64,000 nt of DNA from Candidatus Nomurabacteria bacterium (GTDB taxonomy: Bacteria > Patescibacteriota > Minisyncoccia > Phycocordibacterales > UBA918): positions 496,594 through 560,593 of the forward strand of contig CP060228.1 in the NCBI GenBank assembly GCA_023898565.1, read 5' to 3'. The notes beneath the pieces are model-generated. The model had not been told where the DNA came from and searched no databases. It saw only the letters and a program-made list of their open reading frames with translations. Both the position numbers and the translations under genes were made by a program. Shown here in pieces: positions 29,888 to 53,919 of this stretch. Within the stretch, counting starts at the first letter, position 1, and every line of letters starts with the position of its first letter.

Positions 29888-31381
29888 TCAATCTGAAGCA
29901 GTCGTCTTCCACTCAGTCAGTTTGCTTGCTTCTTCTTCAAACCGCTCTAAACTTTTAAACTGTTTTGGTTCTAAATTATGCAGTTCGATACCAGGATCAG
30001 GCAAGAATATCTGCAAGGGATATTTATCCCTGTTGTCATACACCATCTGATTGATATGGTCATCAAGATGACGAAAGCTGAAGTTGAGTAGCTCTACCGA
30101 TTTATCTATTTCAGCTAATTGAGCGTTGATTTTGTATGTCACATCAACCCCAATCATCTCTGACATCCGCTCTGCCACTTCCTTGAAAGCAAGGAGGTAT
30201 TGATAGTTCTCATAGACATGAGACTGATGGAGTAGGTAGTTAGGAAAAGCGAAAAGTATCAGGTCATCAACCTGCTTTTCATACTCAGTCACAAACGCTG
30301 ACTGTGACTTGGACTTCACTAAACTTTTGCCTGAGATGTACGACTTGTTGAGACTCACTTCAAAGAACCGAGTCGGACATTGTTCGGTCTGTATCTTTCC
30401 GTTTTTGATCAGCGTCTTTAGTTTTCGTTCACTTTTGTCTTTCGCCTTGATCCACAACTGCATCAGTTCGTTATGTGGTAGTTTCGTCTCACCTTCATAT
30501 GTTGTATGTCCAGTACAATGACACAGTGGTATGTACTCACTAAAGAATAAGCCGTCACGCACCGTATCACGCACTACCTGCTCCAGCTTGTATCGAAGAT
30601 CACTCAGCACACCAAGCTTGGTGCGTAGATCATCCTCATCTTCGTAGGTTATGTTGTCTCTTGATGCTAGTCGTTTGCCGAACTCAAGCATTGAGTAACC
30701 AGCAAAGTGGGTGTTAAACAACACTTGCTTAATACTAATTTTCGTATCATGCAACGACAGCTCGTGTCCCCACGGAATCTTTTCGATAATGATCTTGGTC
30801 AATGTGTGTACGTCTTCATCAGTTAGAGATTTTTTGCCGTGTACTATTCGAGCTAGTTGTTCTTCAGCTAGGAGGTAGCTATGGTCAGTATCAGCAATTG
30901 AATCAAGGAGTAAGATGTCTGACCGAATGTCTTTTGGTAATGAGTGTAGAGCTATGAGATGTGCTAGTCGGTCATATTCATACCCAGAGTATTGTAAGAA
31001 AAACTGATGCAGTTCTTCTCGCTGATCATCGGGAATAATCCGATCAAGATAATACTTCCATTGTCGCTCGTCGTTCTTTTTAAGATCAAATAAAGTCGCC
31101 GTATGTTCTAGGCGAGATAATGCCAGCATAGTGGTGAGGTAATTAGTTTGCATATCAAACTCCAGTCGCTGGAACATCTCCCAGAGATTGATGTATTGAT
31201 TGTATTTTTCCGCTTCACGATAGTCTTGTGGTTTCCAGTTTATGGTCAGTGCCACCATATCTGCTTCACTAATCAGCTCTTTGCCAGTCTTTTGGAAATG
31301 AGCATCATTGCGGATCACTAAAAGCACTCGCTCTTTCGGCGCTAGGTTTCCTTTGCGTAGCATTTTAGTGATGTCTTTCAT
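29888..31381 (-). CDS. Hypothetical 497-aa protein, last gene of the MTase operon (candidate effector or nuclease of an RM-like system)
   Basis: Long AT-rich ORF with a 3-nt gap to the upstream gene; contains the Cys/His cluster CHCTGH...C. No Walker A or confident nuclease motif was recognised by eye. Confidence 0.5.
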   Translation of the reverse strand: MKDITKMLRKGNLAPKERVLLVIRNDAHFQKTGKELISEADMVALTINWKPQDYREAEKYNQYINLWEMFQRLEFDMQTNYLTTMLALSRLEHTATLFDLKKNDERQWKYYLDRIIPDDQREELHQFFLQYSGYEYDRLAHLIALHSLPKDIRSDILLLDSIADTDHSYLLAEEQLARIVHGKKSLTDEDVHTLTKIIIEKIPWGHELSLHDTKISIKQVLFNTHFAGYSMLEFGKRLASRDNITYEDEDDLRTKLGVLSDLRYKLEQVVRDTVRDGLFFSEYIPLCHCTGHTTYEGETKLPHNELMQLWIKAKDKSERKLKTLIKNGKIQTEQCPTRFFEVSLNKSYISGKSLVKSKSQSAFVTEYEKQVDDLILFAFPNYLLHQSHVYENYQYLLAFKEVAERMSEMIGVDVTYKINAQLAEIDKSVELLNFSFRHLDDHINQMVYDNRDKYPLQIFLPDPGIELHNLEPKQFKSLERFEEEASKLTEWKTTASD

Positions 31382-31383
31382 AG

Positions 31384-31590
31384 TTATCTTCGTTCGCTTA
31401 AGAGTTGCTCCAATACGTCAATACGCTGTTTCAGTTCGAGATTGGAAATGTTCTTCGATAGAGCCAGTGCAAGTCGAGAAATGATCTGCGCTCGCTTGGG
31501 TGAAATTTTGCGAGCGGCCACCTGAAGCAAAGCCTCCGAGAGGATTTCATTAACTTCTTCTAGCGTGAGTGATTTCTTTATGTCGTTCAT
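31384..31590 (-). CDS. Hypothetical 68-aa helical protein
   Basis: Tightly packed (3-nt gaps) inside the operon; coiled-coil-like with a possible HTH. Confidence 0.35.
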   Translation of the reverse strand: MNDIKKSLTLEEVNEILSEALLQVAARKISPKRAQIISRLALALSKNISNLELKQRIDVLEQLLSERR

Positions 31591-31593
31591 ATT

Positions 31594-31986
31594 TTAATAA
31601 TTCTCAATTAGCTCAAACCACGTCTTCACTTCTTTGGACTTTCCGTGCTTGGTGACGTTCTTATATAAAGCCAACACGACATTTGGAGTGAGTTTCCTAG
31701 CCCAAGCACAGGTGTGTTCTACCAAGCCCTCTTCCTCGATAATTTTGTTCCAGTCGGTGAGCGTACCGAGGTCTTTGATGTCATACTGCGCCGCAAAATC
31801 TTTCTGGGTCTTAAGGCGAAGTAGATCAATGACAACTTCGTCTTCGATACCCATCTTGCGTATCACGGCTTCAGGCTGACCACGCAGAAAGGTCGGTAAC
31901 GATTTCCACGTTACGTAGGTGGCGAAGTCCTGCTTACGGTACACACCATCACTTTTCTTCGGTTGTTCATCGTGGGGTGTGCTCAT
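31594..31986 (-). CDS. Hypothetical 130-aa protein
   Basis: Overlaps the upstream MTase gene by 20 nt; no motif recognised. Confidence 0.4.
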   Translation of the reverse strand: MSTPHDEQPKKSDGVYRKQDFATYVTWKSLPTFLRGQPEAVIRKMGIEDEVVIDLLRLKTQKDFAAQYDIKDLGTLTDWNKIIEEEGLVEHTCAWARKLTPNVVLALYKNVTKHGKSKEVKTWFELIENY

Positions 31987-32743
31987 AATTCGTTACCAAT
32001 TTTCGTTTCTGACCAGTCAGTTTCTCAAGTCGCTTGAGTGCAATCTGTACATATTCAGCATCTTGTTCAATTCCAACACACCGTCGACCCAACTGTTCAC
32101 AAGCCAGAGCAGTACTCCCGCTACCCAAGAACCCATCAAATACCACGTCATCAATCTTCGTCACATTCCGAATTAGTTTACGAAGTAGCCCAATTGGTTT
32201 TTGGGTTGGGTGGAGTTTCGATTTTTGTGGTCGTGGGTGGTAGAGCGCACTTCGCATTTGTGAGGCTGGCTTCTTATGCTTGCCGTACCAGCCGTAGGCG
32301 ATGAGTTCTTGCTGGGGTAGATAGTCCATGCGACCCATGACTGGCTGGTTCTTCAGCCATACCAACATCTGACTGAAATGAAACTCAGCCGTGTATATGC
32401 CAGTGCGTAGTGACAAAAACATCGTGTCGCAGTTAAAGACATGGAAGGTGTTGTATGTATCAAGATGGGGCTTGATAGCACCAAGCCATGACTCGGTAAA
32501 GCGAGCGTATTCGTACTCACTTTGCAGATGGTCACCTTTGATATCTTTAGCGTTAGATACACCAAGCTCAGCTACTCCTTCTTTATTCTGAACGTACGCC
32601 ACACCATACGGCGGATCAGTCACAATCGCTTGTACTTTCTGTCCCTGCAGTACTTCAGATACAAAGGAAGCATTACAACTATCACCACAACCAATCAGAT
32701 GTGTGCCGACCAGGTAGATGTCTCCGTGTTGTACCTTTTTCAT
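31967..32743 (-). CDS. DNA methyltransferase, amino-MTase beta class (N6-adenine or N4-cytosine)
   Basis: Motif IV DPPYG near the N-terminus and motif I FDGFLGSGSTALAC near the C-terminus (the beta-class order). Confidence 0.85.
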   Translation of the reverse strand: MKKVQHGDIYLVGTHLIGCGDSCNASFVSEVLQGQKVQAIVTDPPYGVAYVQNKEGVAELGVSNAKDIKGDHLQSEYEYARFTESWLGAIKPHLDTYNTFHVFNCDTMFLSLRTGIYTAEFHFSQMLVWLKNQPVMGRMDYLPQQELIAYGWYGKHKKPASQMRSALYHPRPQKSKLHPTQKPIGLLRKLIRNVTKIDDVVFDGFLGSGSTALACEQLGRRCVGIEQDAEYVQIALKRLEKLTGQKRKLVTNYEHTPR

Positions 32744-34023
32744 ACGCGCTTGGCTGTTTGTTTGGTAAATTTCTCCCAGCGATCGATGATGGCACTGGCA
32801 AACACGGGATCAAGTTCGACGCCATACCACTTGCGATGCAATTGTTCGCAAGCGATAAGATCACTGCCACTGCCGCCAAAACCAGAGAACACTACGTGAC
32901 CAGGAGCGGTACAACGCTTGAGTGGTTTTTCACTTAAGCCAACCGGCTTCTGAGTCGGGTGCAAATACTCTTGCACGTTGTCCCGCTTCACAATCCAGAG
33001 GTCGATCATGTCGAGTAGCTCGTCATGAAGTTGGTTGCCGCTGGTTATTTTTTGATTAAGAATCTCGTTGGTGTTTTTGAGATTTTGATTTAGGTACGGC
33101 TTTCCACTTGTACCGTATACACACGGTTCATGTACTCGGTTAAAGGCAGTCTGCGGAGTTGGGTTTTGATTATTCTTCACCCACGAGCATAACCGCTTAA
33201 AAGTGATCTTGTGTTCCTTATACAGTGACTGAATATCACCAATGTATTTAGCATCACACCAGAAGAAATAGTGGGATTTGGGTAGAGCTATCTTGTGTGA
33301 GGTAGCAATACTGTTTGCAAGAAACTTTTGGTATTCAGCATCAGTCTTCGAGTCATCTTTAGCTGAGTACTTGCCTCCATAATTCTTGCCACTACCGATA
33401 CCTTTGTCATATGAGAGACCGATATTATAGGGCGGGTCTAGATAAATGAGGTGCGCTTTTGCTTCACCCATGAGTTTGGTAACCAGCTTTTCATTGGTAG
33501 AATCTCCGACCAAGAGGCGATGATCACCTAACTGCCAAATCTCTCCAAGCTTGGCTCGTGGCTCATCCATTTCTTCAATCGCTTTTTCAACATCATAGTC
33601 ATCTTCAGCGAGTTCGACATCATCGAAGAAACCTTGTAATTCTTCATCAGCAAATCCAACATCAAGTAAGACGTCGAGATCAAATGCTTTTAGCAATTCT
33701 TCATCCCACGAACCAGTGTTATGGTTCAAGCGAAGGTTTAACTCTCGCTCTTCTTCGAGCGTGAGTTCCCGAGAGGGAATCATACACTCGACTTCCTTGT
33801 ATCCAAGGTCAGCGTATATCTTTACTCGCTGTTCACCCCCGATCAGCACATCTGCTCGTGAGCCGATGTTTAGTACGACTGGTACAACTGCACCAAACTC
33901 CTCGATTGATTTTTGGAGATTGTGTCGTTCTTCTCCCTCCATCTTGCGTGGATTGTATCCATTGGGCGTGAGGTCTTGCACCTTACGCTTCGTGGATGAC
34001 CACGTTATCTTTTTTGACTTCAT
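32740..34023 (-). CDS. ParB-like nuclease domain fused to a DNA methyltransferase (beta-class amino-MTase)
   Basis: N-terminal ParB/Srx-like LTPNGYNPRKM...VLIGGEQRV, then DPPYN (motif IV) and C-terminal FSGFGGSGSDLIAC (motif I). Overlaps the downstream MTase by 4 nt. Confidence 0.85.
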   Translation of the reverse strand: MKSKKITWSSTKRKVQDLTPNGYNPRKMEGEERHNLQKSIEEFGAVVPVVLNIGSRADVLIGGEQRVKIYADLGYKEVECMIPSRELTLEEERELNLRLNHNTGSWDEELLKAFDLDVLLDVGFADEELQGFFDDVELAEDDYDVEKAIEEMDEPRAKLGEIWQLGDHRLLVGDSTNEKLVTKLMGEAKAHLIYLDPPYNIGLSYDKGIGSGKNYGGKYSAKDDSKTDAEYQKFLANSIATSHKIALPKSHYFFWCDAKYIGDIQSLYKEHKITFKRLCSWVKNNQNPTPQTAFNRVHEPCVYGTSGKPYLNQNLKNTNEILNQKITSGNQLHDELLDMIDLWIVKRDNVQEYLHPTQKPVGLSEKPLKRCTAPGHVVFSGFGGSGSDLIACEQLHRKWYGVELDPVFASAIIDRWEKFTKQTAKRV

Positions 34024-34185
34024 ACATAATGTTGCTTAGGCACACTGTTCGTGTGTTATGTATGATTATCGAAGGAATCAGAGCTTTAAAATAGGTCGAG
34101 CAAATCCGAGCAAACGCAAAAAACGCCTTGTGTTACCAAGACGTTTTTTGTTAATCCACAGACTTGTTTACGCTGGTTTGCTCAG

Positions 34186-35340
34186 CTACAGGTTATTTCT
34201 AAAAGTGATGTAGTCGTCAGTGGCTTCGAGCACCATCTCTCTAGTGTCGGGTCGCAGATTATCGACCCCATTATCCTTTAAGAAGTTATGAAATGACTTA
34301 GCACTCTTGCCGACATTAGATCGATACTTGTCAGATGATCGTTCGTCAGGCGGTAGTAGCTCTTTGAACTTTTTAATTGATATCTTCTCTTGATTTGCTG
34401 GCATGTACTTGAGAATGTTTTTAAACAGTTTGATGTACATTGGGTCACCTTCGCCTCGTAGTTTGTATGTGAGTTTTTCTGATTTGCTGTGATGATAAAT
34501 GTTGCCATCCTTAAGATAAAAGATACTGTTCGCAACAGTCTCTTTGGTGTCATCCTCGTCATTATTCATAATGATTGAGTTGTGAATGCGCTCCAAATCA
34601 CTATGGAATCGTCGACGACCAAAGTAATCACTAGATCGAATATCGCCTGACATGAGTTTTGCGTATTCCTTATGCCGACTATTCTCAAGTAATTTACCCA
34701 TAAAATTTTTCGTCGTTGCATCGAAACTGATACTGTTATTGCTGAAATAGATCATTTCTTGATACCCCTCTGTTAAACGAGTGAGTGCTCCAGCATAGTC
34801 ACTGATATCTTGACGCATGAAGACTTCCTCAGCTCCCAGGTACGCTTTTATATTTTTCGTTACGGTAATTTTCTTATCGCTTAGTTGGTTTGTCGATTCT
34901 ATCTTTTGATCAAGAAATTCATTAGCCTCATCATAATATTCTAGTTCGATCAGCCTTCTTACAAAATCAAAGATCTCACTTTGCATCGTATCAAAACGAT
35001 TACCGCCAATGACTGTGGTAGAGCCATCTAGTAAACTATCAAGATCTTCTATGCTCGATGCAATTACAGGATCTTCCTTAACATCTAGTTTGTCTGCAAT
35101 CTTGTTGAACTTACTTTGAATTTTGATGATTTCTTTCAGTAGCTCATCCCGTTGTTTTTCTAAGGTTTCCAGCCTTTGCTTGCGTGCAATGATATCGGTA
35201 CCTAAGTGGAGAAGTAGGTCTGTGCCATGTTCAGCTAAAAAGCCAATATAGTCCTGAAAAGCAATCACGAAACTCCGATCTAAAACCTTACTGTATAGAG
35301 TGTCGAACAGTAGTTTCTCCTTATTTAACAAGCTATTCAT
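34186..35340 (-). CDS. Hypothetical 384-aa protein (AT-rich; its own transcription unit)
   Basis: Long ORF followed by an A/T-flanked hairpin at about 34118-34150 on the minus strand; no motif recognised. Confidence 0.45.
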   Translation of the reverse strand: MNSLLNKEKLLFDTLYSKVLDRSFVIAFQDYIGFLAEHGTDLLLHLGTDIIARKQRLETLEKQRDELLKEIIKIQSKFNKIADKLDVKEDPVIASSIEDLDSLLDGSTTVIGGNRFDTMQSEIFDFVRRLIELEYYDEANEFLDQKIESTNQLSDKKITVTKNIKAYLGAEEVFMRQDISDYAGALTRLTEGYQEMIYFSNNSISFDATTKNFMGKLLENSRHKEYAKLMSGDIRSSDYFGRRRFHSDLERIHNSIIMNNDEDDTKETVANSIFYLKDGNIYHHSKSEKLTYKLRGEGDPMYIKLFKNILKYMPANQEKISIKKFKELLPPDERSSDKYRSNVGKSAKSFHNFLKDNGVDNLRPDTREMVLEATDDYITFRNNL

Positions 35341-35532
35341 AAAGAGATGATAGCATTTTTCAGTATTCTAATGTGAAAAGCGAAAGTGCTCTATAATTGG
35401 CATTGTTTGGCATTTGGAGACCCCGACCCGTAGACATCAGAAAATCTGACGACCAGTCGCTAAAATACCCTTATGGGGTCTACAGCGTGGGGTACTTAAC
35501 CCGAGTGGCCCGCCGTTTAGAGCTGGCACGAA

Positions 35533-36207
35533 GTGCTTATGTTGAAGAAATTTTGGGAACAAAACAAACATCAACTCCAGTTAGTTGGAATACTTATTGG
35601 TGTGGGAGCACTTTTTCTTTCGATACCAATTCCTGAGATTGAGGAGGCTGCAGAGGCATTGAAAAAGATTCAACTAATTTGGCTACTGATAGTAACAATT
35701 TCAACAGGGTTACTATTTGTAAACTTGCATAAGTTATCAAGACTCTACGAAATTGATAGTACGAAGGATAAGGATAGTTTTAATTTTGATGAAACAATAT
35801 CAATTGTAATTGGACTAACAATTGCATATTTCATTAGTAATATGTGGATATATGCCTATTCACTATATCGGGAAGTAATTTTTGATTTCATTGAAACTGT
35901 ACAATTTGGAATCACTGCATTTTTAGTGGCAGTCACATACCACTGTTGGAGAAAAATAGTTCTAAAGTTTGAAAATCACAATCCGAAACTTAGAGTCTGT
36001 ATAGCAATTACAGGTCACGCTATTAATGCGTTGCTACTCGGTGCTTGGCTACATGTTTCAATTAATAGTTGGGAATTCGTTTTGAATGAATGGCTGTATT
36101 GGTCAGTTGGAACTTTTGTGGTCATGATGGCCATGGGTTTGATGATTGATTGGAAAAGAAAAAGCGAAAGCGCTCGAGACACTATCGAACCTGAAACTGA
36201 AAAGTAG
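35533..36207 (+). CDS. Hypothetical integral membrane protein (about 6 TM)
   Basis: Multiple hydrophobic helices; AT-rich. Confidence 0.45.
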   Translation: MLMLKKFWEQNKHQLQLVGILIGVGALFLSIPIPEIEEAAEALKKIQLIWLLIVTISTGLLFVNLHKLSRLYEIDSTKDKDSFNFDETISIVIGLTIAYFISNMWIYAYSLYREVIFDFIETVQFGITAFLVAVTYHCWRKIVLKFENHNPKLRVCIAITGHAINALLLGAWLHVSINSWEFVLNEWLYWSVGTFVVMMAMGLMIDWKRKSESARDTIEPETEK

Positions 36208-36301
36208 TTAATCGGTCAAGCAGGGCTCGGTACCATACGGTTCTTGCTCGAGACCAACACGAGACAGATGTCTCGTGCTGGTTTTGCGTTATAATTACAC
36301 T

Positions 36302-37426
36302 ATGAAAAAGATTCTTTTAATAATGTCAGTGGCCTGTGCCGTTGTAGTGTTATTCATTGCTCTGGCAGGTATGTATAAGTTTAACTACTTAGCTTCTTTG
36401 CCTGGGTATGATGTTGATGGTAATCAGATTGAAACAACTGATGCTTTTGAAGTGGTTGAAGTGTTAGGTCAAAGTTGTCAATCTGATAACGATTGCGAAA
36501 CTCCAGCAGCCTATGCAATACAGTCGAATTGTCCATACGACTCGGTATGTATTGCAAATAGTTGTGCTGTTGTTTGTCCGCACCCGTTTTCAGGGTCGTC
36601 AATTGATGTTGCTGGCCCGAAGAACGCCGCCTACACGCTAGATGGTGAAACGGTGACTCTGGTTGATGGTGTATCTGAAGCAGAAGTAGCACCTGATTCG
36701 ACAACTAAAATCATCACGCGGTATTTTGGTAACGAAGTACAAACTGATCTCAACAACGATGGTCGTACAGATGCTGTATTTTTACTCACTCAAGAAACAG
36801 GTGGTACGGGAACATTTTTCTACGTTGTTGCGGCGCTCAATACTAAAGACGGGTGGGTCGGATCTCGTGGATACTTTTTGGGGGATCGAATAGCGCCGCA
36901 GTCCACTGAAGTAAGCAGAAACATAAATCATAAGAATGTGATAGTGGTTAATTATGCCGACAGAGAAGACGGCCGGCCGATGTCTGAACAACCGTCTGTT
37001 GGTAAAAGTGTTTGGTTGAAACTAGATATAGACTCAATGACTTTTGGTGAGGTTGTACAAGATTTCGAAGGAGATGCTGATCCAAATGTGATGACGCTTA
37101 ATATGCAGATATGGACATGGGTTAAAACTCAGTACAACAATGATACTGAGTTTACTCCAAACCAAGCAGAAGCGTTTACTCTTGCTTTTACAGAAGAGGG
37201 GACAATTTCAGCTACAACTGATTGTAATTCTATGCATGGTACCTACGAACTCCATGAGAATGAAATTACGTTTGGTCCAATGGCGATGACCAGAATGTTT
37301 TGTGCAGAATCGCAAGAGCAGGAATTTGCAGAAATGTTATCAAAAACTCAATCATATTTTTTTACATCAAGAGGAGAGCTCGTTTTTGAACTGAAGGACG
37401 ACGCTGGCTCGGCGATATTTCGTTAA
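36302..37426 (+). CDS. Secreted/membrane-anchored protein with a Cys-rich segment and a C-terminal META (HslJ-like) domain
   Basis: Signal/TM MKKILLIMSVACAVVVLFIALAG; CQSDNDCETP...CPYDSVCIANSCAVVCP; C-terminal TTDCNSMHGTYELHENEITFGPMAMTRMFC, which is META-domain-like. Confidence 0.5.
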   Translation: MKKILLIMSVACAVVVLFIALAGMYKFNYLASLPGYDVDGNQIETTDAFEVVEVLGQSCQSDNDCETPAAYAIQSNCPYDSVCIANSCAVVCPHPFSGSSIDVAGPKNAAYTLDGETVTLVDGVSEAEVAPDSTTKIITRYFGNEVQTDLNNDGRTDAVFLLTQETGGTGTFFYVVAALNTKDGWVGSRGYFLGDRIAPQSTEVSRNINHKNVIVVNYADREDGRPMSEQPSVGKSVWLKLDIDSMTFGEVVQDFEGDADPNVMTLNMQIWTWVKTQYNNDTEFTPNQAEAFTLAFTEEGTISATTDCNSMHGTYELHENEITFGPMAMTRMFCAESQEQEFAEMLSKTQSYFFTSRGELVFELKDDAGSAIFR

Positions 37427-37463
37427 AACTAACGTGCACTAAATACCTAACAACAGACGATGG

Positions 37464-38402
37464 ATGGTTTGTTATACTGCGGTAATGAATAAACAGGAAA
37501 TGATTGCTGAATTTGCAATTCGGTCGTCATTAGTGAAAGATCCGAAGGTATCATTTTTGGCTGGAGGCTTTGGGAATGAAAACTATCTGATACAAGAGGG
37601 TGATTTACAGTACGTGCTTCGTCTTAAGAAGAGTGATGAACCGCAATTCCGTGATTCGCTAGAGCGTGAATACATATTTTTAAAGTACTACAATGAGTGT
37701 GGTGTAGTATTTTGTCCCAAGGCACTGTATTTTGATTCGAGAGACAACTATCTCATTGAGAGTTTTCTGCCCGGAAAGCTTACTCTGTTAAAAGATTTTA
37801 CCAATGAGCAAGTCGATCAATTTGCTAGGCAGTTGGCCAGTCTGTTTCATCTTAGCGTGCCAGACTTCTATGTCTTTTGTACAAAAAACAATCTAAGAAA
37901 ATATAAGCAAGAAGACCCAATCTCTCTCCTGCAAAAATATGGGTTTGAGCGCTTAGCTGAAGCTAAGCGGTATGGGTTTTCGGGAGAGTCTGCGGCTTGG
38001 CTAGAAGGCTCTTTAAACGAAAATTTGGAATATTTTGAAAATCAAAGTGTAACTGCTGAGCTGGGATTTTCCTGGGGCGATGTGCAGTCAAGTCTGATTA
38101 TTGGCCCAGGCGACGAAATGTACTTTTACGATTTTGAACATACGGTAATTTCTGACTTTAATGATCTGGCATATATTAAAATTCACAGCGGTTTTGATTC
38201 AAGGCAGTTGGAATATTTTGTTGAAAGATGTGCGAAGTATCTCAATAGAAGTACGGATTCTTTAATTTTTAGTATGAATGCTAGTGAGAAAGCAATTCGA
38301 ACCAATGATGCAATTTGGGCCGCGTGGCAGTGGTCTCAAACTGGTGATGCTAGCTTTGAACAAATGTTACATGAGCGGATTGCTTTAGTGAAAGGTTTGT
38401 AG
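37464..38402 (+). CDS. Phosphotransferase-family (APH/choline-kinase-like) protein kinase-fold enzyme, possibly degenerate
   Basis: N-terminal GFGNENYLI...VLRLKK (nucleotide-binding loop and Lys) and a DFE (cation-binding) motif; the catalytic loop is atypical. Confidence 0.4.
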   Translation: MVCYTAVMNKQEMIAEFAIRSSLVKDPKVSFLAGGFGNENYLIQEGDLQYVLRLKKSDEPQFRDSLEREYIFLKYYNECGVVFCPKALYFDSRDNYLIESFLPGKLTLLKDFTNEQVDQFARQLASLFHLSVPDFYVFCTKNNLRKYKQEDPISLLQKYGFERLAEAKRYGFSGESAAWLEGSLNENLEYFENQSVTAELGFSWGDVQSSLIIGPGDEMYFYDFEHTVISDFNDLAYIKIHSGFDSRQLEYFVERCAKYLNRSTDSLIFSMNASEKAIRTNDAIWAAWQWSQTGDASFEQMLHERIALVKGL

Positions 38403-38442: not shown

Positions 38443-38521
38443 GCCCGGAAAGCGAAGCTTTCCGGGCTTTTTCATTGCCAGTGCCCAAATAAAAAGTGCC
38501 TGGACGTAAGCGTCCAGGCAC
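38443..38521. terminator. Two hairpins forming a convergent terminator pair
   Basis: GCCCGGAAAGCGAAGCTTTCCGGGC followed by TTTTT (plus strand) and AAAAAGTGCCTGGACGTAAGCGTCCAGGCAC (serves the minus strand). Confidence 0.65.
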
Positions 38522-38536
38522 TGATGCTACTTCTCC

Positions 38537-40441
38537 TTACAGGTTAGGCTGCGAACGAATTTCGGGCACGGCACCCCGATAGATCACTGTGGTGTAATCA
38601 TCGGGGTCTGTTTCCGATACGAAATTGTAGCGGTCAAAGAGTGAGCGCATGCGTGGGTTTTTGCTGGCAAAGGTAATCGCGTGCAGTTCCTTCACACCCT
38701 TAGCGCGTGCCCAGTCCACCAGGGCTTCCATGAGGTGCGTACCGATGCCCAGGCCTTGCAGTTCGCTGTGGCGCGAGAATGACACTTCGTATGAGCCCTC
38801 ACTGGTCTGGAAGGCGTGAGCGATGCCGATGATGTAACCTCCTTGCTCCATGACGAATACGCCGTGATGGTTGTAATCCAAGGTGCTGTCGTACAACTTA
38901 ATCAGCCGACTTGAGGCTGTCAGGGTTTCGACAGGCATACACGAAAAGTATCGCGTTTCACGATCTCCTTTAGAAAGATGCGGAATGTACTCCCGGATGA
39001 GCTCGATATCTTCGTGGGTGGCTGGACGCACGATTGCTTCGCTGTCGTTGCGCAGCGTGACCAAGCGGGGAGTGATGGAATCAACTCCTTGCATAGCCGG
39101 CAGCGTTCTGACGTGTTTGGCAATTTGCGTGCGCAAATCAGGGTGCACAATCTGCAACATTCGCGACACCCGAGTTCGATCATCGACCATGCGCAGATCG
39201 GCCAGGCCATACTCCGTAACGATGACGACCGGCAAATCGGCACTGATGGTGTGATGCGCTCCTTCAGGGAGAGTTGGCACAATCTTGCTGATCACCGCGT
39301 CGCCACTTTTTGCAGTGCTCGGCAGTGCAATGAATGACAGACCGCCTTCGGCCCAGGTAGCACCAAGCGCAAAGTCGTTCTGTCCGCCGACGTCTGAGTA
39401 GTAGTGTCGCTGCCGGGTGGCAGCTGCTACTTCACCAGCCAGACTGACTGCCAGTGTGGTGTTTACACTGACCATGTGCCGGTTCTGTTTGATGAGTCCA
39501 GGATCATTGACGAATTGCTGTGGCAAGACCAGGAAGTGCGGATTTTCGTGCATGGTGTCGTAGAGATCTCGACTGCCAAGCACAAAGCCGACAACAGCAT
39601 GGTCGCGCAGATTGGTGCCGCCAGCGCGTTTGATGAGTCCTTTTCGGTACAGGTCCAAAACTCCGTCAGAGAACATCTCTGACCACACGCCTTCGATGCA
39701 CCGATTTTGTGCCGCCAACTGAGCGGCAATGGCATTTGGAATTGCACCAATGCCAAGCTGCAGTATGTGGGGAAGCGTACCGTTTGGAAGAATGTCTTTT
39801 TCGAGCTCTCCCATGATATGTTCAGCAATTTTCTGAGCTGACAAAGCTGCCTCAGCTTTGGGTATCATGGTATGTTCGAGAAGGGGTTGGTCAATGTGAA
39901 CAACAACATCAAAGTCACGTAGATACATTGGGCAGCCGCTCTCGTAGTGCTGGTTTGTTTCGGGATCAAAGTACTGCCCGATATGCCAGCGCGGCATTTG
40001 CGCATTGACGACGGCAATCTTGAATCGAGCAGCTTTGACAGCTGCGTCGTCGAGTCCAGCGTTGAGACCGAGAGTAACTCGCCCCGCTTCGTCCGGCAGA
40101 GATACATGTGCAAAGGCGACATCGGGTCGCCAGGCACCGTCATACAGTCGATGTACCTGCGAGAGGTTGCAGCGGATATTCTTGGCGAGTCCAGCGTTCA
40201 CCAGAGCGCGGACGCCCGGGCCGATAAAAGCGGTGACTGGTGTTACGCCACCAGCAACTGCTTTAGCCCAGTCGTTTGCCTTGCCGAGCGAGAGAAGTTG
40301 AAAGACTTGTGTGCCCTTGATTTGTTGAGCATTGTCGAAAATCCAGCGCTCGACGTCAGTGATGACGGCGGTGTTGCCCGGCAGGTAGCAAACTGACTGT
40401 TTTGAGCCATTCTTTTGCAGCTTGGCTGCGGCTACTGCCAT
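38537..40441 (-). CDS. Fusion protein: acetyl-CoA hydrolase/transferase family domain (about 440 aa) plus a C-terminal GNAT acyltransferase domain
   Basis: SDVGGQNDFALGA, matching the SGVGGQxDF motif of 4-hydroxybutyrate/acetyl-CoA transferases, then a GNAT-like C-terminus (HGVFVMEQGGYIIGIAHA...LQGLGIGTHLMEALVDWARAKG). Confidence 0.6.
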   Translation of the reverse strand: MAVAAAKLQKNGSKQSVCYLPGNTAVITDVERWIFDNAQQIKGTQVFQLLSLGKANDWAKAVAGGVTPVTAFIGPGVRALVNAGLAKNIRCNLSQVHRLYDGAWRPDVAFAHVSLPDEAGRVTLGLNAGLDDAAVKAARFKIAVVNAQMPRWHIGQYFDPETNQHYESGCPMYLRDFDVVVHIDQPLLEHTMIPKAEAALSAQKIAEHIMGELEKDILPNGTLPHILQLGIGAIPNAIAAQLAAQNRCIEGVWSEMFSDGVLDLYRKGLIKRAGGTNLRDHAVVGFVLGSRDLYDTMHENPHFLVLPQQFVNDPGLIKQNRHMVSVNTTLAVSLAGEVAAATRQRHYYSDVGGQNDFALGATWAEGGLSFIALPSTAKSGDAVISKIVPTLPEGAHHTISADLPVVIVTEYGLADLRMVDDRTRVSRMLQIVHPDLRTQIAKHVRTLPAMQGVDSITPRLVTLRNDSEAIVRPATHEDIELIREYIPHLSKGDRETRYFSCMPVETLTASSRLIKLYDSTLDYNHHGVFVMEQGGYIIGIAHAFQTSEGSYEVSFSRHSELQGLGIGTHLMEALVDWARAKGVKELHAITFASKNPRMRSLFDRYNFVSETDPDDYTTVIYRGAVPEIRSQPNL

Positions 40442-40580
40442 GACTTCAGCAATGGTATTGAGGATGCGTTACGACATGGTGCTTCTCCTTGTAGAAAAAG
40501 TAGTGTGACAAAAAACTATAAATCCGCCAGATAGTCTACTCGCGAAAAGGGTGTTGTCAATTTGAGGTGGCGGTGGCAAT

Positions 40581-40621
40581 AAAATCAGCCGGCGCGGACG
40601 AAGTCCGCGCCGGCTGATTTT
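40581..40621. terminator. Long A/T-flanked hairpin downstream of the nitroreductase gene
   Basis: AAAATCAGCCGGCGCGGACGAAGTCCGCGCCGGCTGATTTT. Confidence 0.65.
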
Positions 40622-40637
40622 ATTAAGTGTTACACCG

Positions 40638-41366: not shown

Positions 41367-41678
41367 ATGAAGAAAAAGCCACAGATTTGTAGCGAGTGCC
41401 CCGTTAGCAATACGGCCAAAATCGTTGGAGATTTTTGGTTATTACTTATAGTCCGCTCACTTCTCGACGGACCAAAGCGTTTCAATGAATTGGCGGAATC
41501 ACTCCATGGCATTAGTCGTCGAACGCTTACGCAGAAACTTCACAAAGCAGAGGATGAAGAGCTGGTTGTACGTCATGAGTACGCCGAAGCGCCACCGCGA
41601 GTGGAATACAAACTAACTCCGCGCGGCAAGAAGATGCGCGCCATCATTAAGGCGGTAGAAACATTCACCAAGGGGTAG
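41367..41678 (+). CDS. HxlR-family winged-helix transcriptional regulator
   Basis: CPV...IGDFWLLLIVRSLLDGPKRFNEL...ISRRTL...L...GLV.R; divergent from the nitroreductase gene. Confidence 0.75.
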   Translation: MKKKPQICSECPVSNTAKIVGDFWLLLIVRSLLDGPKRFNELAESLHGISRRTLTQKLHKAEDEELVVRHEYAEAPPRVEYKLTPRGKKMRAIIKAVETFTKG

Positions 41679-45854: not shown

Positions 45855-46946
45855 ATGAGCTTTATTACCAACATTCTTTCATCGCTTCAGTCCAAAGATG
45901 GTTCTGGGAGCAGTGTTGTAGGTATTGATGTCGGGTCTGCGTCAATGAAGGTGGTTGAGCTTGAGGAGCGCAAGGGAGTGGTAACGCTCGTAACATACGG
46001 TGAAGTACAACTTGGTCCATATGCTGGAAAACAACTTGGGGATTCAGTCACGCTTGACGCAAAGCAAGAGCAAGAGGCTTTGGTTGACGTCATTCGCGAG
46101 TCTGCCGTTAAGGCTCGCAACGCAGTTTTTGCCATGCCATTGTCTTCAAGTTTTGTAACCAATGTCAGTATTGACGCAGACGCAGACGCAGATTTAAGTT
46201 CTATGGTTCGTGTCGAAGCACGCAAAGTCATTCCCGCGTCTCTTAGTGAAGTGACACTTGATTGGGCTGAAGTTGAAGTGACCAAGAAAGAGGCCGAGAA
46301 TCATGAGACAGATCGCCGCAATGTTTTAATTGCTGCAATTCAAAATTCTGCCCTTGAGCGTTTTAAAGTGCTCATGCAGTTCGTCGGAATTCAAAACCCA
46401 CCAACAGAGATTGAGTGCTTTAGTTCAATCCGCAGTTTGTATAGTTCGGATGAGTCCGATTTTGCAATCATTGATATTGGTGCCACCTCTGCCAAGTTGT
46501 ACATCACGCGCAAAGGGTTGCTAATGCGCATGTACCGTATTCGCGCTGGTGGGGCTATAGCTACCAAAAAAATCTCAGAAACACTTAACATCAATTTTGA
46601 AACCGCCGAGGAGTTAAAATACATAGCCGACAAACAAGCGAGTAATTTTACCGACATGAAGCGCGCACATAACAGTAGTTACGATCGGGCTTTCCGGGAG
46701 TTCAATCAGGTGTTGCGCGAGTATGAGCAACGTACTGGTGTAAAAATTAGTACCGTCTATCTTTCTGGCGGGGGAGCACTTTTCCCTGGTATTGATGCTC
46801 ACCTCAAGGACGCGCTTAGTCGAGAGGTAATCCTGTCAAATCCATTTGCGCGTGTCGCGTATCCAGCCTTTATGGAAGATACTATGAAAGAGATTGGTCC
46901 ATCGTTTACTGTTGCGGTTGGCGCTGCGCTGCGATCATTTGAGTAG
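45855..46946 (+). CDS. pilM: Type IV pilus assembly protein PilM (actin-like ATPase)
   Basis: VVGIDVGSASMKVVEL... and the FtsA/PilM fold pattern; first gene of the pilus operon. Confidence 0.85.
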   Translation: MSFITNILSSLQSKDGSGSSVVGIDVGSASMKVVELEERKGVVTLVTYGEVQLGPYAGKQLGDSVTLDAKQEQEALVDVIRESAVKARNAVFAMPLSSSFVTNVSIDADADADLSSMVRVEARKVIPASLSEVTLDWAEVEVTKKEAENHETDRRNVLIAAIQNSALERFKVLMQFVGIQNPPTEIECFSSIRSLYSSDESDFAIIDIGATSAKLYITRKGLLMRMYRIRAGGAIATKKISETLNINFETAEELKYIADKQASNFTDMKRAHNSSYDRAFREFNQVLREYEQRTGVKISTVYLSGGGALFPGIDAHLKDALSREVILSNPFARVAYPAFMEDTMKEIGPSFTVAVGAALRSFE

Positions 46947-46999
46947 TGTTTCCACAGCTCTGAACTCTTTTTCTTCTATTTGTACGTATAATTAAAGGT

Positions 47000-47758
47000 A
47001 TGCCAGGTTCTTCTTCCAATAATTCGTTCATTCCTAAGCGTGGTTCCGCGCTTGGTTCCAAGCGTAAGTCTGTCTCTCGGCAGGTGTATGTCTTCACGAT
47101 TATTAGTTACGTCGTGCTTTTTGCTACTTTACTTGCGACTGGGGGTGTCTTTTTGTATGAGAATTATCTTAAGTCTGAACGTGATGCTGTTATCTCGCAA
47201 TTACATAGCGACATAACATCGTTTAGTCGCGCCGATATGGAAGCGTTGCAGCAGTTTGATCGTTATTTGGATCAAGCGTATGGTCGGCTCGACATGAGCG
47301 TCTCGGTATCTTCCATCTTTTCAGCAATTGAAGCGGCAACTATTGATACGGTACGACTCGAAACGCTTGGCTTTGAGAGGGAAAATGACATGGCCTACTT
47401 ACTTACGGCCAGTGTTAAGACTGATTCATTTGACTCAACTATTTTCCAAAGAAAAGTTTTTGAAAACAACGCAATTGTCTCCTCAGTTGTTGTGCGCGAT
47501 GTGCAGGCGGCTTCGGCGAAATCTGATGAATCAGATAATTCTTCAAATGGAGGCGGTAGCAACCCGCGCAGTGAGCGTTTGAGTTTTACTGCTGAGCTCG
47601 GAGTGCCGCTCAGTGCGGTGCCGTATGTCCCAGGCGCCGTGCAGTCGAGTTTTACACCAGCGCCACCAACTGTAGAGCAAACAAAAATTGAAAGCGAGCC
47701 AGCGGGAGTTGAGGTGGGTGACATCTTACAAGGAAATGCTAATGAAACAGAGATATGA
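47000..47758 (+). CDS. PilN-like bitopic membrane protein
   Basis: Single N-terminal TM (YVFTIISYVVLFATLLATGGVFLY) then a periplasmic domain; position and coupling (ATGA overlap with the next gene). Confidence 0.5.
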   Translation: MPGSSSNNSFIPKRGSALGSKRKSVSRQVYVFTIISYVVLFATLLATGGVFLYENYLKSERDAVISQLHSDITSFSRADMEALQQFDRYLDQAYGRLDMSVSVSSIFSAIEAATIDTVRLETLGFERENDMAYLLTASVKTDSFDSTIFQRKVFENNAIVSSVVVRDVQAASAKSDESDNSSNGGGSNPRSERLSFTAELGVPLSAVPYVPGAVQSSFTPAPPTVEQTKIESEPAGVEVGDILQGNANETEI

Positions 47759-48327
47759 TTCCTAAAGGGCTATTTATGCAGATTGGGATGGTGATCGTTT
47801 CAGTTGCGATTGTGTTCACCTATGTTAAACCCCAGTTTACCACCATCGCTGCAATTCAAGATGATATCGCACTTTACCAGCAAAAGCGCGATGAAGTTTT
47901 ATTGGTGAATTCACGTCTTACTGAACTTACTGATCAGGTCGATAGCGTTTCTGAGGTAGACAAAAAGCGTCTACAGACATATCTGCCAGAAACACTAGAT
48001 CCACTCAAAGTTTCGCGCGATTTGCTTTTGGCTACCATTCAGGCTGGGGTTTTATACAAAGACGTTACTTTTGATGGTGAAGAGAGACAGAATAACAAGC
48101 GCCAGTCCACATCAAAATCAGCAGACGAAAACAAGCCAGCTCCGCATTCGTTCACACTACAAGTCGAAGGAACGTACGCTCAAATCAAGGAGCTCTTCCG
48201 TCTGCTAGAGCAGAATAATTACCCGCTCGAAGTACAGACTGCCGATGTAGCACGAGTGGACGGTGGTTTTTTAGGAGCAAATATAACACTAGTAACTTAT
48301 TCATTCGATAATGGGCTAGATATTTAG
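47755..48327 (+). CDS. PilO-like bitopic membrane protein
   Basis: N-terminal TM then a coiled-coil (DDIALYQQKRDEVLLVNSRLTELTDQVD); position in the operon. Confidence 0.5.
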   Translation: MIPKGLFMQIGMVIVSVAIVFTYVKPQFTTIAAIQDDIALYQQKRDEVLLVNSRLTELTDQVDSVSEVDKKRLQTYLPETLDPLKVSRDLLLATIQAGVLYKDVTFDGEERQNNKRQSTSKSADENKPAPHSFTLQVEGTYAQIKELFRLLEQNNYPLEVQTADVARVDGGFLGANITLVTYSFDNGLDI

Positions 48328-48328
48328 T

Positions 48329-48658
48329 ATGGGAAAGACTGCTACAAATTTAGTGATAGTGCTTGGCTTGATTACGGTTGCCTTTGCTGGATTTTATCTG
48401 TATATGCAGCAAGAGAATGCAGATGTTTCGTTTGGTGGCAACAACACGCAAGATGTGCAGGCTATGCTCCGTGATGCACAAGAATATATTAGCTATGGTG
48501 ATACGTTAAAAGCGATTGATTTGAAAGTGGAGTTTTTTGATGATCCACGCCTGCTGTCGTATAAAAGCTTCAGTACACAAGTACAGGACCGTCCGATTGG
48601 TCGACCAAATCCTTTTGCTGATACTACTGTAATTAATCCGGCTGCTATTGATTTCTAA
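48329..48658 (+). CDS. Small single-TM protein in the pilus operon (PilP-like role possible)
   Basis: N-terminal TM LVIVLGLITVAFAGFYLYM; sits between the pilO-like gene and pilB. Confidence 0.35.
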   Translation: MGKTATNLVIVLGLITVAFAGFYLYMQQENADVSFGGNNTQDVQAMLRDAQEYISYGDTLKAIDLKVEFFDDPRLLSYKSFSTQVQDRPIGRPNPFADTTVINPAAIDF

Positions 48659-50519: not shown

Positions 50520-50862
50520 TGACGCTTTTTTGCGTGATATGTACGCAAAGAAATTTGCTGACAGTGGGTACGAAGTCGAAGTGGCCGACAGTGGCGCTGC
50601 CGGTCTTTCGAAAATCCGACAACATCCCGATTTTGATATGGTCATTTTAGACATGGTCATGCCAGGCATGTCTGGCGTTGAGTTGATTGAAAATATCAAA
50701 CGAGACTTTCCAGACTTTAAGGCAAAATGCGTCGTGTTATCAAACCAGGGGCAGCCTGAGGATATTAAGGAGGCGGAAGTAGCGGGGGCTGACGGATACA
50801 TTATCAAAGCGGAGGTGGTACCAAGTGATGTGGTGAAAAAAGCGGAGGTACTTTTTAAGTAA
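50491..50862 (+). CDS. Single-domain response regulator (receiver) embedded between pilB and pilT (PilH/PilG-like)
   Basis: KLLLVDDDAFLRDMY...MVILDMVMPGMSGVEL...K; overlaps the pilB 3' end. Confidence 0.8.
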   Translation: MMMKLLLVDDDAFLRDMYAKKFADSGYEVEVADSGAAGLSKIRQHPDFDMVILDMVMPGMSGVELIENIKRDFPDFKAKCVVLSNQGQPEDIKEAEVAGADGYIIKAEVVPSDVVKKAEVLFK

Positions 50863-50868
50863 ATTGTT

Positions 50869-51936: not shown

Positions 51937-51949
51937 TTACTATTTTCGT

Positions 51950-53167: not shown

Positions 53168-53176
53168 TTACAAAAC

Positions 53177-53823: not shown

Positions 53824-53843
53824 TAATTGGAGTGCTGTACAAA

Positions 53844-53873: not shown

Positions 53874-53919
53874 TTGTAACAGAGGTGTCCGGGACTAAAT
53901 GTTATGTATAATATTTTTA

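What the first reader, a model, noticed from the sequence alone, without database searches (positions are those of the whole stretch)
38537..40441. Acetyl-CoA hydrolase/transferase domain fused to a GNAT domain: candidate self-contained acid-activating acyltransferase
The N-terminal roughly 440 aa carry the SxVGGQxDF motif and overall pattern of 4-hydroxybutyrate/acetyl-CoA:acceptor CoA-transferases. The C-terminal roughly 190 aa are a GNAT fold. The fusion could generate an acyl-CoA from a free acid and channel it to N-acylation of a protein or small molecule. This is analogous in logic to Pat (an acyl-CoA-synthetase-like domain plus GNAT), but with different chemistry. The gene is bounded by its own terminators.
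Basis: inference. Interest (0 to 1): 0.55.

Follow-up and report, generated by a model that had tools for sequence, protein, structure and literature searches.

The report
CoA-transferase fused to Pat-type acyltransferase
This gene from a tiny-genome (CPR) bacterium fuses an apparently active CoA-transferase to a protein-lysine acetyltransferase domain of the Pat type, an unstudied architecture that arose at least twice and may link organic-acid levels to protein acylation.

Summary
ORF 38537-40441 (-) encodes 634 aa. Residues ~1-445 are a 4-hydroxybutyrate-CoA-transferase-family domain with an intact nucleophile (E255 = AbfT E238) and the SDVGGQNDF loop. Residues ~459-630 are a GNAT whose closest sequence and fold relatives are Pat-type lysine acetyltransferases; it keeps E552 (= PatZ E809), R497/F499 (= R754/F756) and the P-loop. 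Strong terminators lie on both sides. More than 100 full-length homolog clusters exist in CPR bacteria and Proteobacteria, all with generic names. A second, more distant fusion clade arose independently, and 6 of its 20 loci have an HDAC-family deacetylase gene adjacent or nearby (0 of 56 single-domain loci), which suggests reversible N-acylation. The gene is under purifying selection (dN/dS 0.086) despite an in-frame stop at codon 3 of its ancestral start. The most likely function is a Pat-like protein acyltransferase whose fused CoA-transferase makes or exchanges the acyl-CoA donor. A sensor role for that domain is the main rival. "Self-contained acid activation" is overstated, because a CoA-transferase needs a CoA-thioester donor. 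The architecture lies outside the accepted types I-V, and I found no publication on it. No activity has been tested.

The parts
38537..40441 (-). Whole ORF, 634 aa plus stop; deposited as USN88400.1 'GNAT family N-acetyltransferase', Candidatus Nomurabacteria MAG
39107..40441 (-). CoA-transferase domain, res 1-445 (PF02550 + PF13336; 4-hydroxybutyrate-CoA-transferase/AbfT branch)
39677..39685 (-). W253-S254-E255. E255 is the predicted nucleophile and aligns with AbfT E238. All three residues are invariant in the clade; canonical enzymes have H-[ST]-E here
39371..39397 (-).
39926..39979 (-). Subfamily-specific insertion, res 155-172 (GQYFDPETNQHYESGCPM; D159, G169 and C170 invariant). It is absent from solved 4HB-CoA-transferases and shared with single-domain relatives P0115-P0117
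39068..39106 (-). Interdomain linker, res 446-458 (TLPAMQGVDSITP; Q451 and G452 invariant)
38552..39067 (-). Pat-type GNAT domain, res 459-630
38945..38953 (-). R497-Y498-F499, equivalent to the PatZ gating-motif residues R754/F756 whose Ala mutants lose activity
38786..38788 (-). E552, equivalent to the catalytic Glu of PatZ (E809) and M. tuberculosis Pat (E235); invariant
38741..38758 (-). Q562-GLGIG-567, the acyl-CoA pyrophosphate-binding P-loop (= PatZ G822-G824)
38495..38522 (-). Intrinsic terminator of the gene (12-bp stem, TTTTTATTT tail)
40577..40625 (-). Intrinsic terminator of the upstream nitroreductase gene (23-bp stem), which insulates the fusion gene
40533..40560 (-). Promoter-like site, TTGACA-16-TAGACT (consensus match only)
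40469..40490 (-). Shine-Dalgarno AAGGAG (40485-40490) plus the ancestral start ATG-TCG-TAA (40469-40477). Codon 3 is TAA here and CAA in a sister strain. Translation now starts at ATG 40441, 27 nt after the stop

Best explanation
The gene encodes a bifunctional enzyme. Its C-terminal module is a Pat-type GNAT that transfers an acyl group from acyl-CoA to an amine, most probably the epsilon-amino group of lysines on target proteins. It would use E552 as general base, with R497/F499 in the gating motif. Its N-terminal module is a catalytically competent family-I CoA-transferase. Through a glutamyl (E255) anhydride/thioester ping-pong cycle it exchanges CoA between a thioester donor, most simply acetyl-CoA, and a free carboxylic acid: acetyl-CoA + R-COO(-) <-> R-CO-CoA + acetate. 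Fusing the two makes the supply or composition of the GNAT's acyl donor depend on the local concentration of that acid. Protein acylation, possibly non-acetyl, would then report an organic-acid pool. Shown here: the architecture, intact catalytic residues in both domains, purifying selection, stand-alone transcription unit, independent recurrence of the fusion, and linkage to an HDAC-type deacylase in the second clade. Inferred: CoA-transferase activity, the identity of the acid, a protein rather than small-molecule acceptor, and any direct hand-over of acyl-CoA between the two sites.
For: Both domains are above Pfam thresholds. E255 aligns with AbfT E238, and N312 and G352-G353-Q354-x-D356-F357 are invariant across 31 homologs at 50-63% identity. 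This contrasts with what is established for Pat/PatZ, whose N-terminal synthetase-like domain acts as a regulator. The GNAT's nearest sequence and fold relatives are protein lysine acetyltransferases: PatZ 9isq/9it0 at 1.2e-8, Rv0998 4ava at 4.6e-7, and S. lividans PAT GNAT bound to Acs (4u5y) at TMt 0.90 and rmsd 1.6 A. E552, R497, F499 and the P-loop map onto PatZ E809, R754, F756 and G822-824, residues shown by mutagenesis to matter, and are conserved in both fusion clades. The confident model with pTM 0.84 and an invariant linker motif suggests a fixed domain arrangement. The fusion arose at least twice. In the CoA-transferase tree the window clade groups with single-domain P0115-7 (85.5% bootstrap), and an exclusive grouping with the other fusion clade gets 0% in both domain trees. 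HDAC-family genes (PF00850, E 1e-69 to 1e-94) lie adjacent or nearby in 6 of 20 distant-clade loci against 0 of 56 single-domain loci (Fisher p = 1.8e-4), in three different arrangements and lineages. dN/dS is 0.086 and 0.076. An unfused precedent exists in E. coli: YdiF (CoA-transferase) makes lactyl-CoA, which YiaC (GNAT) uses, with CobB as eraser (PMC9636275). The host encodes phosphoketolase plus acetate kinase (2244-5779), so acetate and acetyl-phosphate metabolism is present.
Against: No activity has been measured for any member. Conserved catalytic residues are also compatible with a ligand-sensing role. The window's own clade has no conserved neighbour in nine contexts, and there is no HDAC in the 64-kb window; no sirtuin or Acs turned up among the ORFs and called genes that were Pfam-scanned, roughly 40 of 63. 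The HDAC evidence therefore comes only from the independently derived clade. HDAC-family enzymes also include acetylpolyamine amidohydrolases, so the acceptor could be a small amine. The protein scores far below every NCBIfam equivalog cutoff (147 bits against 674.8 for butyryl-CoA:acetate CoA-transferase; 54 against 460 for Pat), so no substrate can be transferred by orthology.
Confidence: 0.45

Rival explanations
1. Sensor model. The CoA-transferase domain does not supply the donor. It acts like the regulatory domain of PatZ, binding an acyl-CoA (possibly forming the covalent Glu-CoA intermediate) and allosterically switching the GNAT on or off, while also providing oligomerisation and substrate docking. 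The protein would then be an acetyl-CoA-dependent lysine acetyltransferase with a new kind of regulatory domain.
For: In PatZ, acetyl-CoA binding to the N-terminal regulatory domain activates the GNAT, and the GNAT alone is inactive (PMC12184503). All known multi-domain bacterial GNAT lysine acetyltransferases use the extra domain for regulation (same paper). The model shows a fixed interdomain arrangement (pTM 0.84).
Against: The full catalytic set (E255, N312, GGQxDF) is invariant in the window clade, and the nucleophile motif is kept in the independently fused clade. That degree of retention is not required for mere binding. Pure regulatory domains derived from enzymes commonly lose catalytic residues (established knowledge for Pat).
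Confidence: 0.28
2. Small-molecule model. The GNAT N-acylates a low-molecular-weight amine (a polyamine, amino acid or amino sugar) with the acyl-CoA made by the transferase, forming a two-step metabolic or detoxification enzyme. The HDAC-family neighbour in the other clade would be an acyl-polyamine amidohydrolase.
For: The HDAC family (PF00850) includes acetylpolyamine amidohydrolases, and the neighbours match no specific NCBIfam model. Weak GNAT hits to small-molecule acetyltransferases exist: ArsN1 at 2.7e-4 and amino-acid N-acetyltransferase at 2.8e-3.
Against: The best sequence and fold matches are consistently protein acetyltransferases of the Pat type, by several orders of magnitude. 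The Pat-specific N-terminal extension and gating motif (RP..., R-[YF]-F) are present.
Confidence: 0.13
3. Cis-regulation model. The GNAT's target is the fused CoA-transferase itself (in cis, or in trans within an oligomer), switching it off by lysine acylation as Pat/AcuA switch off acetyl-CoA synthetase. The HDAC neighbour would reactivate it.
For: In the distant clade the only recurrent neighbour is the eraser, and no separate target gene is linked. This resembles acsA-acuABC logic with target and writer in one polypeptide (established knowledge for Bacillus).
Against: No lysine is invariant in the CoA-transferase domain of the window clade. Only K141 reaches 90% or more, and it is not conserved in the distant clade.
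Confidence: 0.09
4. Decaying gene. The in-frame TAA at codon 3 of the Shine-Dalgarno-served start means the gene is a pseudogene.
For: ATG-TCG-TAA lies 7 nt after AAGGAG. A sister strain has CAA at that codon and a protein 12 residues longer at the N-terminus, 644 aa in all.
Against: The remaining 634 codons are open. Two lineages that both carry the TAA differ by 52 synonymous and 15 non-synonymous changes (dN/dS 0.086). The same allele occurs in several independent metagenome assemblies (L085-L090). An ATG lies 27 nt downstream, and other homologs (P0031, P0092) also lack the first residues.
Confidence: 0.03

Closest known systems
Pat / PatZ (YfiQ) and other multi-domain bacterial GNAT lysine acetyltransferases (types I-III; PDB 9it0, 4ava, 4u5y)
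   Same: The GNAT domain is homologous, with the same general-base Glu, gating-motif Arg/Phe, P-loop and 'RP' N-terminal extension. The GNAT sits C-terminal to a large CoA-ligand-binding domain, and the overall logic links acyl-CoA metabolism to lysine acylation.
   Different: The N-terminal domain is not the NDP-forming acyl-CoA-synthetase-like, cAMP-, ACT- or NADP-binding module of types I-III. It is a family-I CoA-transferase with an unrelated fold and retained catalytic residues. The protein scores far below the NCBIfam Pat cutoff.
4-hydroxybutyrate CoA-transferase AbfT (3gk7) and relatives (2oas, 3eh7, 9vag, RipA)
   Same: Same fold (TMt 0.83-0.90), same nucleophile Glu and GGQxDF loop, with 25-30% structure-based identity.
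   Different: The protein carries a C-terminal GNAT, an ~15-residue insertion at res 155-172, Trp instead of His before the nucleophile and a YLPGN motif. It belongs to a separate subfamily with single-domain members P0115-P0117. Substrate is unknown.
E. coli YdiF (CoA-transferase) + YiaC (GNAT) + CobB lysine lactylation system (PMC9636275)
   Same: The proposed logic is the same: a CoA-transferase makes a non-acetyl acyl-CoA from the free acid, and a GNAT then puts it on lysines, with an eraser present.
   Different: Those are three separate, unlinked proteins. YdiF belongs to a different branch of family-I CoA-transferases, YiaC is a single-domain GNAT, and the eraser is a sirtuin rather than an HDAC-type enzyme.
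Bacillus AcuA-AcuC writer/eraser pair
   Same: A GNAT writer gene lies adjacent to an HDAC-family eraser gene, as in 6 of 20 loci of the distant fusion clade.
   Different: AcuA is a stand-alone GNAT of another subfamily. No HDAC gene lies near the window's gene or its close relatives.

Membership tests
Family-I CoA-transferase, acetyl-CoA hydrolase/transferase (AbfT/4HB-CoA-transferase) branch | PF02550 + PF13336 domains above the gathering score | tested here: met
   38.0 bits against a cutoff of 24, and 152.7 bits against 23.7
Family-I CoA-transferase, acetyl-CoA hydrolase/transferase (AbfT/4HB-CoA-transferase) branch | Catalytic glutamate nucleophile (AbfT E238) | tested here: met
   E255 aligns with residue 238 of chain 3gk7_A, counted from the alignment. 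It is invariant in 31 homologs. The identity of E238 as the nucleophile is from my own knowledge (Macieira et al. 2009); I found no searchable paper
Family-I CoA-transferase, acetyl-CoA hydrolase/transferase (AbfT/4HB-CoA-transferase) branch | GxGG(Q) oxyanion/CoA loop and the two-lobed fold | tested here: met
   G352-G353-Q354-x-D356-F357 are invariant. TMt is 0.90 to 2oas and 0.86 to 3gk7
Family-I CoA-transferase, acetyl-CoA hydrolase/transferase (AbfT/4HB-CoA-transferase) branch | Orthology to a characterised enzyme (NCBIfam equivalog cutoffs) | tested here: not met
   TIGR03948 scores 147 bits against 674.8. The succinate CoA-transferase subfamily scores 91 against 659. Substrate cannot be inferred
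Family-I CoA-transferase, acetyl-CoA hydrolase/transferase (AbfT/4HB-CoA-transferase) branch | Measured CoA-transfer activity | not testable with these tools
   Needs an enzyme assay
Pat-type GNAT protein lysine acetyltransferases | GNAT fold whose closest relatives are Pat GNAT domains | tested here: met
   4u5y TMt 0.90 with rmsd 1.6 A, 4avb E 8e-15, and PatZ the best sequence hit
Pat-type GNAT protein lysine acetyltransferases | General-base Glu (PatZ E809 / MtPat E235) | tested here: met
   E552 aligns with both by chain numbering. It is invariant
Pat-type GNAT protein lysine acetyltransferases | Gating-motif Arg/Phe (PatZ R754, F756) and P-loop (G822-G824) | tested here: met
   R497, F499 and G565-G567. 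F499 is Met in most clade members
Pat-type GNAT protein lysine acetyltransferases | Type I/II regulatory domain homologous to NDP-forming acyl-CoA synthetase, or a type III cAMP/ACT/NADP domain | tested here: not met
   No such Pfam domain is found. The N-terminal 445 residues are a CoA-transferase. Typology is from PMC12184503. The protein is therefore not a member of any defined type
Pat-type GNAT protein lysine acetyltransferases | NCBIfam Pat equivalog cutoff | tested here: not met
   NF058543 scores 54 bits against a cutoff of 460
Pat-type GNAT protein lysine acetyltransferases | Acylation of a protein lysine (e.g. Acs) | not testable with these tools
   No Acs gene was found among the window ORFs that were scanned. 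Needs biochemistry or proteomics
Writer-eraser gene pair (AcuA/AcuC-like) | Deacylase gene adjacent to the acyltransferase gene | tested here: not met
   No HDAC homolog is in the 64-kb window or in the six close loci then held (window, L001-L003, L080, L083), and none is among the Pfam-annotated genes of the four contexts fetched later (L092-L095). The feature is met only in 6 of 20 loci of the independently fused clade

The most novel reading that the evidence does not exclude
These fusions are a new, convergently evolved class of bacterial lysine acyltransferase (outside types I-V) that makes its own non-acetyl acyl-CoA donor on site from acetyl-CoA plus a free organic acid such as lactate, succinate, butyrate or 4-hydroxybutyrate. 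This would give an enzymatic, acid-specific route to lysine acylation. In the second clade it would be paired with a dedicated HDAC-type deacylase. In genome-reduced CPR bacteria it could be a principal writer of protein acylation.
Probability: 0.3. Interest if true: 0.75.

Novelty: new variant of a known kind. Interest (0 to 1): 0.57.

Why it matters
How cells obtain the specific acyl-CoA donors for enzymatic non-acetyl lysine acylations (lactyl, succinyl, butyryl and others), and how those marks are tied to metabolite levels, is an active question. A single polypeptide that joins an acyl-CoA-exchanging enzyme to a Pat-type writer would be a compact, directly testable model for that coupling. 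It arose at least twice, and in one clade it sits beside an eraser gene. It would also add a sixth architecture to the current typology of bacterial protein acetyltransferases. In addition, it would be a rare lead on post-translational regulation in CPR/Patescibacteria, whose physiology is almost unknown. A cultured carrier exists for experiments: Burkholderiales bacterium JOSHI_001 (P0101).

Tried and rejected
- **First genome scan.** Single-sequence peptide patterns found no relative. The alignment-based scan worked.
- **Neighbours in the window's clade.** ORF clustering over six loci and Pfam-annotated contexts found nothing recurrent. HxlR/nitroreductase is not linked, because a sister strain has a copper-resistance cassette inserted between them.
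- **HDAC search.** tblastn against the whole window and all loci found HDAC genes only in distant-clade loci.
- **HDAC subtype.** NCBIfam gave no hit at 1e-10, so protein deacetylase versus acetylpolyamine amidohydrolase is unresolved.
- **Single origin of all fusions.** Rejected by reciprocal BLAST and bootstrapped NJ trees. A first Biopython bootstrap run timed out.
- **Recent horizontal transfer.** Gene GC is 0.543 against a window mean of 0.477, rank 5 of 63 ORFs, z = 1.5, so it is not an outlier.
- **Pseudogene hypothesis.** Rejected by dN/dS.
- **Literature.** Five searches for this architecture found no description of it. One mis-framed PDB query failed.
- **afdb50 fold library.** Unavailable.
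- **Interdomain geometry.** The distance between active sites could not be measured because model coordinates are not exposed.
Full report
**Observation**

The ORF at 38537-40441 on the minus strand is real and encodes 634 aa. Pfam finds the two halves of the acetyl-CoA hydrolase/transferase family: PF02550 at res 45-153 and PF13336 at res 289-443 (E 9e-45). It also finds a GNAT domain, PF00583, at res 513-607 (E 5.5e-13). All three are above their gathering scores.

Sequence searches of the PDB hit 4-hydroxybutyrate CoA-transferases (9vag, 3eh7, 3d3u, 2oas, 3gk7) at E 1e-57 to 1e-42 over residues 19-445. They hit Pat-type acetyltransferases over residues 456-613.

An AlphaFold2 model built on 31 homologs is confident, with mean pLDDT 89.3 and pTM 0.84. 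Its C-terminal third shows the canonical GNAT strand/helix order. Foldseek against the PDB puts the N-domain on 2oas (TMt 0.90) and AbfT 3gk7 (0.86). It puts the C-domain on Rv0998 (E 8e-15), PatZ, and the S. lividans PAT GNAT domain crystallised with Acs (4u5y, TMt 0.90, rmsd 1.6 A).

**Transcription unit**

A 12-bp hairpin with a T-run follows the stop codon at 38495-38522 (z = -6.3 against shuffles). A 23-bp hairpin at 40577-40625 follows the upstream nitroreductase gene (z = -9.95). The consensus scan missed the second one because its T-run pairs with an upstream A-run. A promoter-like TTGACA-16-TAGACT lies between that terminator and the gene.

**Catalytic residues**

By the chain numbering in the HMMER alignments, E255 aligns with residue 238 of AbfT (3gk7), the nucleophilic glutamate of that enzyme. 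The assignment of E238 as nucleophile is my own knowledge; the searchable library held no paper on it. W253-S254-E255, N312 and G352-G353-Q354-x-D356-F357 are invariant in 31 full-length homologs that are only 50-63% identical.

In the GNAT, E552 aligns with E809 of the 886-residue PatZ chain and with E235 of M. tuberculosis Pat. R497 and F499 align with PatZ R754 and F756, I589 with I846, and G565-G567 with the P-loop G822-G824. The PatZ structure paper reports that Ala substitutions of R754, F756, E809 and I846 strongly reduce activity (PMC12184503). These positions are conserved in both fusion clades, in classical Pat proteins and in related stand-alone GNATs. Neither domain looks degenerate.

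**Source and integrity of the gene**

The exact protein is deposited as USN88400.1, 'GNAT family N-acetyltransferase', from a Candidatus Nomurabacteria MAG on a 951,832-bp contig. The window's other genes fit a CPR chromosome: phosphoketolase plus acetate kinase, FtsH, RecG, LigA, GatA, a type IV pilus cluster and tmRNA.

The only good Shine-Dalgarno sequence (AAGGAG, 40485-40490) serves an ATG at 40477 that is followed by TCG and then TAA, in frame with the main ORF. The codons after the stop (RILNTIAEV) align with homolog N-termini. A sister strain (P0278/L091) has CAA at that codon, and its protein extends 12 residues further at the N-terminus. The TAA allele is present in several independent assemblies (L085-L090). 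Two TAA-bearing lineages differ by 52 synonymous and 15 non-synonymous substitutions, giving dN/dS = 0.086. The gene is therefore maintained by selection and is evidently translated from ATG 40441, 27 nt after the stop.

**Distribution**

The word-indexed protein search returned more than 110 clusters (at 90% identity) of full-length fusion proteins at 50-63% identity. They come from Kaiserbacteria and Paceibacterota and from Proteobacteria (Aquabacterium, Rubrivivax, Burkholderiales JOSHI_001, Magnetospiraceae). All carry generic names such as 'GNAT family N-acetyltransferase' or 'acyl-CoA hydrolase/RimJ...'.

A scan of GTDB species representatives found three close loci. It also found 20 loci of a more distant set (29-34% identity) with the same Pfam architecture, in Planctomycetota, Phycisphaerae, Acidobacteriota, Verrucomicrobiota, Omnitrophota, Myxococcota, Glaciecola and Kangiellaceae.

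**Two origins**

The window's CoA-transferase domain is closest to single-domain proteins P0115-P0117 (41-42% identity). They share its ~15-residue insertion (res 155-172) and its YLPGN motif. The distant fusion clade is about 54% identical to ordinary single-domain enzymes P0119/P0120.

The window's GNAT is closer to ~185-aa stand-alone GNATs that share its YE[VL]S[FY]SRRSD signature (35-45% identity), and to classical 800-900-aa Pat proteins, than to the GNAT of the distant clade.

In NJ trees with 200 bootstraps, the window clade is monophyletic (97.5%) and groups with P0115-P0117 (85.5%). An exclusive grouping of the two fusion clades has 0% support for either domain. The distant fusions are interleaved with single-domain enzymes. 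The same pairing of a 4HB-CoA-transferase-family domain with a Pat-type GNAT therefore arose at least twice, which argues that the two activities are functionally coupled.

**Genomic context**

The window's clade has no recurrent neighbour in nine different contexts. A sister strain even has a copper-resistance cassette inserted between the nitroreductase and the fusion gene.

In the distant clade, 6 of 20 loci carry an HDAC-family gene (PF00850, E 1e-69 to 1e-94) next to or near the fusion gene:
- Four lie immediately downstream on the same strand: L026 (4-bp overlap), L033 (abutting), L063 (15-bp gap) and L028 (106-bp gap).
- One is divergent and adjacent (L013).
- One lies 2.7 kb upstream (L010).

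None of the 56 single-domain CoA-transferase loci has one (Fisher p = 1.8e-4). This is the writer-eraser arrangement known from acuA-acuC. It indicates that the GNAT performs a reversible N-acylation. It does not by itself distinguish protein lysines from polyamines, and the HDAC genes match no specific NCBIfam model.

**Interpretation**

The best-supported reading is a Pat-like protein acyltransferase whose fused, catalytically competent CoA-transferase exchanges CoA between a thioester donor and a free acid. That exchange would set the acyl donor available to the GNAT. E. coli offers an unfused precedent: YdiF makes lactyl-CoA, YiaC writes lysine lactylation and CobB erases it (PMC9636275).

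The main rival is that the transferase domain is a regulatory acyl-CoA sensor, as the N-terminal domain of PatZ is. Full retention of the catalytic set in two independent fusions tips the balance towards catalysis but does not prove it. A small-molecule acceptor and cis-acylation of the transferase domain remain possible. The latter is weakened by the absence of an invariant lysine.

**Relation to known families**

The N-domain meets the defining features of the AbfT branch of family-I CoA-transferases but falls far below every equivalog cutoff, so no substrate can be assigned. The GNAT meets the catalytic and structural hallmarks of Pat-type enzymes. It lacks the regulatory domains that define types I-III and is not a stand-alone type IV/V enzyme.

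The five-type typology in the 2025 PatZ paper has no CoA-transferase class, and five text searches found no paper on the architecture. I rate it a new variant of a known kind. It is present in databases under generic names, uncharacterised, and of moderate to good interest.

Noticed in passing
window 40469-40490 (-): The Shine-Dalgarno-served ancestral start ATG is followed by TCG and then an in-frame TAA at codon 3. A sister strain has CAA there. The allele recurs in several independent assemblies (L085-L090), and the gene is still under purifying selection, which implies re-initiation at ATG 40441, 27 nt downstream of the stop.
   Followed up: yes
L026:2026-2949, L033:7528-8445, L028:4588-5511, L063:9774-10742, L013:6689-7732, L010:4174-5145: HDAC-family (PF00850) genes lie adjacent to or near the distant-clade CoA-transferase-GNAT fusions in Glaciecola, Kangiellaceae, Omnitrophota and Phycisphaerae. 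They are absent from 56 single-domain loci.
   Followed up: yes
window 39677-39685 and 39926-39979 (-): The fusion clade has an invariant Trp (W253) where canonical enzymes have His two residues before the nucleophile. It also has an ~15-residue insertion with invariant D159, G169 and C170. These may define the unknown acid specificity.
   Followed up: partly
window 2244-5779 (+): Phosphoketolase (XFP) is immediately followed by acetate kinase, with a 16-bp overlap. This is an acetyl-phosphate/acetate-producing module in the same CPR genome, relevant to acetate and acetyl-CoA availability.
   Followed up: partly
window 30000-38000: A low-GC stretch (0.38-0.43 against a window mean of 0.48) holds two adjacent N6/N4 DNA methyltransferase genes (31967-32743 and 32740-34023, -) and several ORFs without Pfam hits. 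It could be a restriction-modification or mobile island.
   Followed up: no
L091:1863-5819: A sister strain carries a copper-resistance cassette (CsoR-like repressor, HMA P-type ATPase, DsbD_2) inserted between the nitroreductase and the fusion gene. The cassette is absent from the window.
   Followed up: partly
window 45855-55317 (+): A type IV pilus gene cluster is present: PilM-like 45855-46946, PilB 48648-50519, PilT 50869-51936, PilC 51950-53167 and prepilin peptidase 54409-55317.
   Followed up: no
window 14701-15096 (-): There is a full-length tmRNA (101.7 bits) and four tRNA genes (21791-21863, 28187-28273, 62314-62384, 63852-63925).
   Followed up: no
window 41367-41678 (+) and L080:10025-10312: An HxlR-family regulator lies near the fusion gene both here (divergent from the nitroreductase) and in a Kaiserbacteria genome (paired with DoxX). 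Each is probably a separate HxlR/redox-enzyme pair and not a link to the fusion gene.
   Followed up: partly
(P0004, P0109, P0020, P0050, P0101, P0008): The window's clade is shared at 52-60% identity between CPR bacteria (Nomura-, Kaiser- and Paceibacteria) and Beta-/Alphaproteobacteria, which implies cross-phylum transfer. The gene's GC (0.543, rank 5 of 63) is not an outlier in the window.
   Followed up: partly
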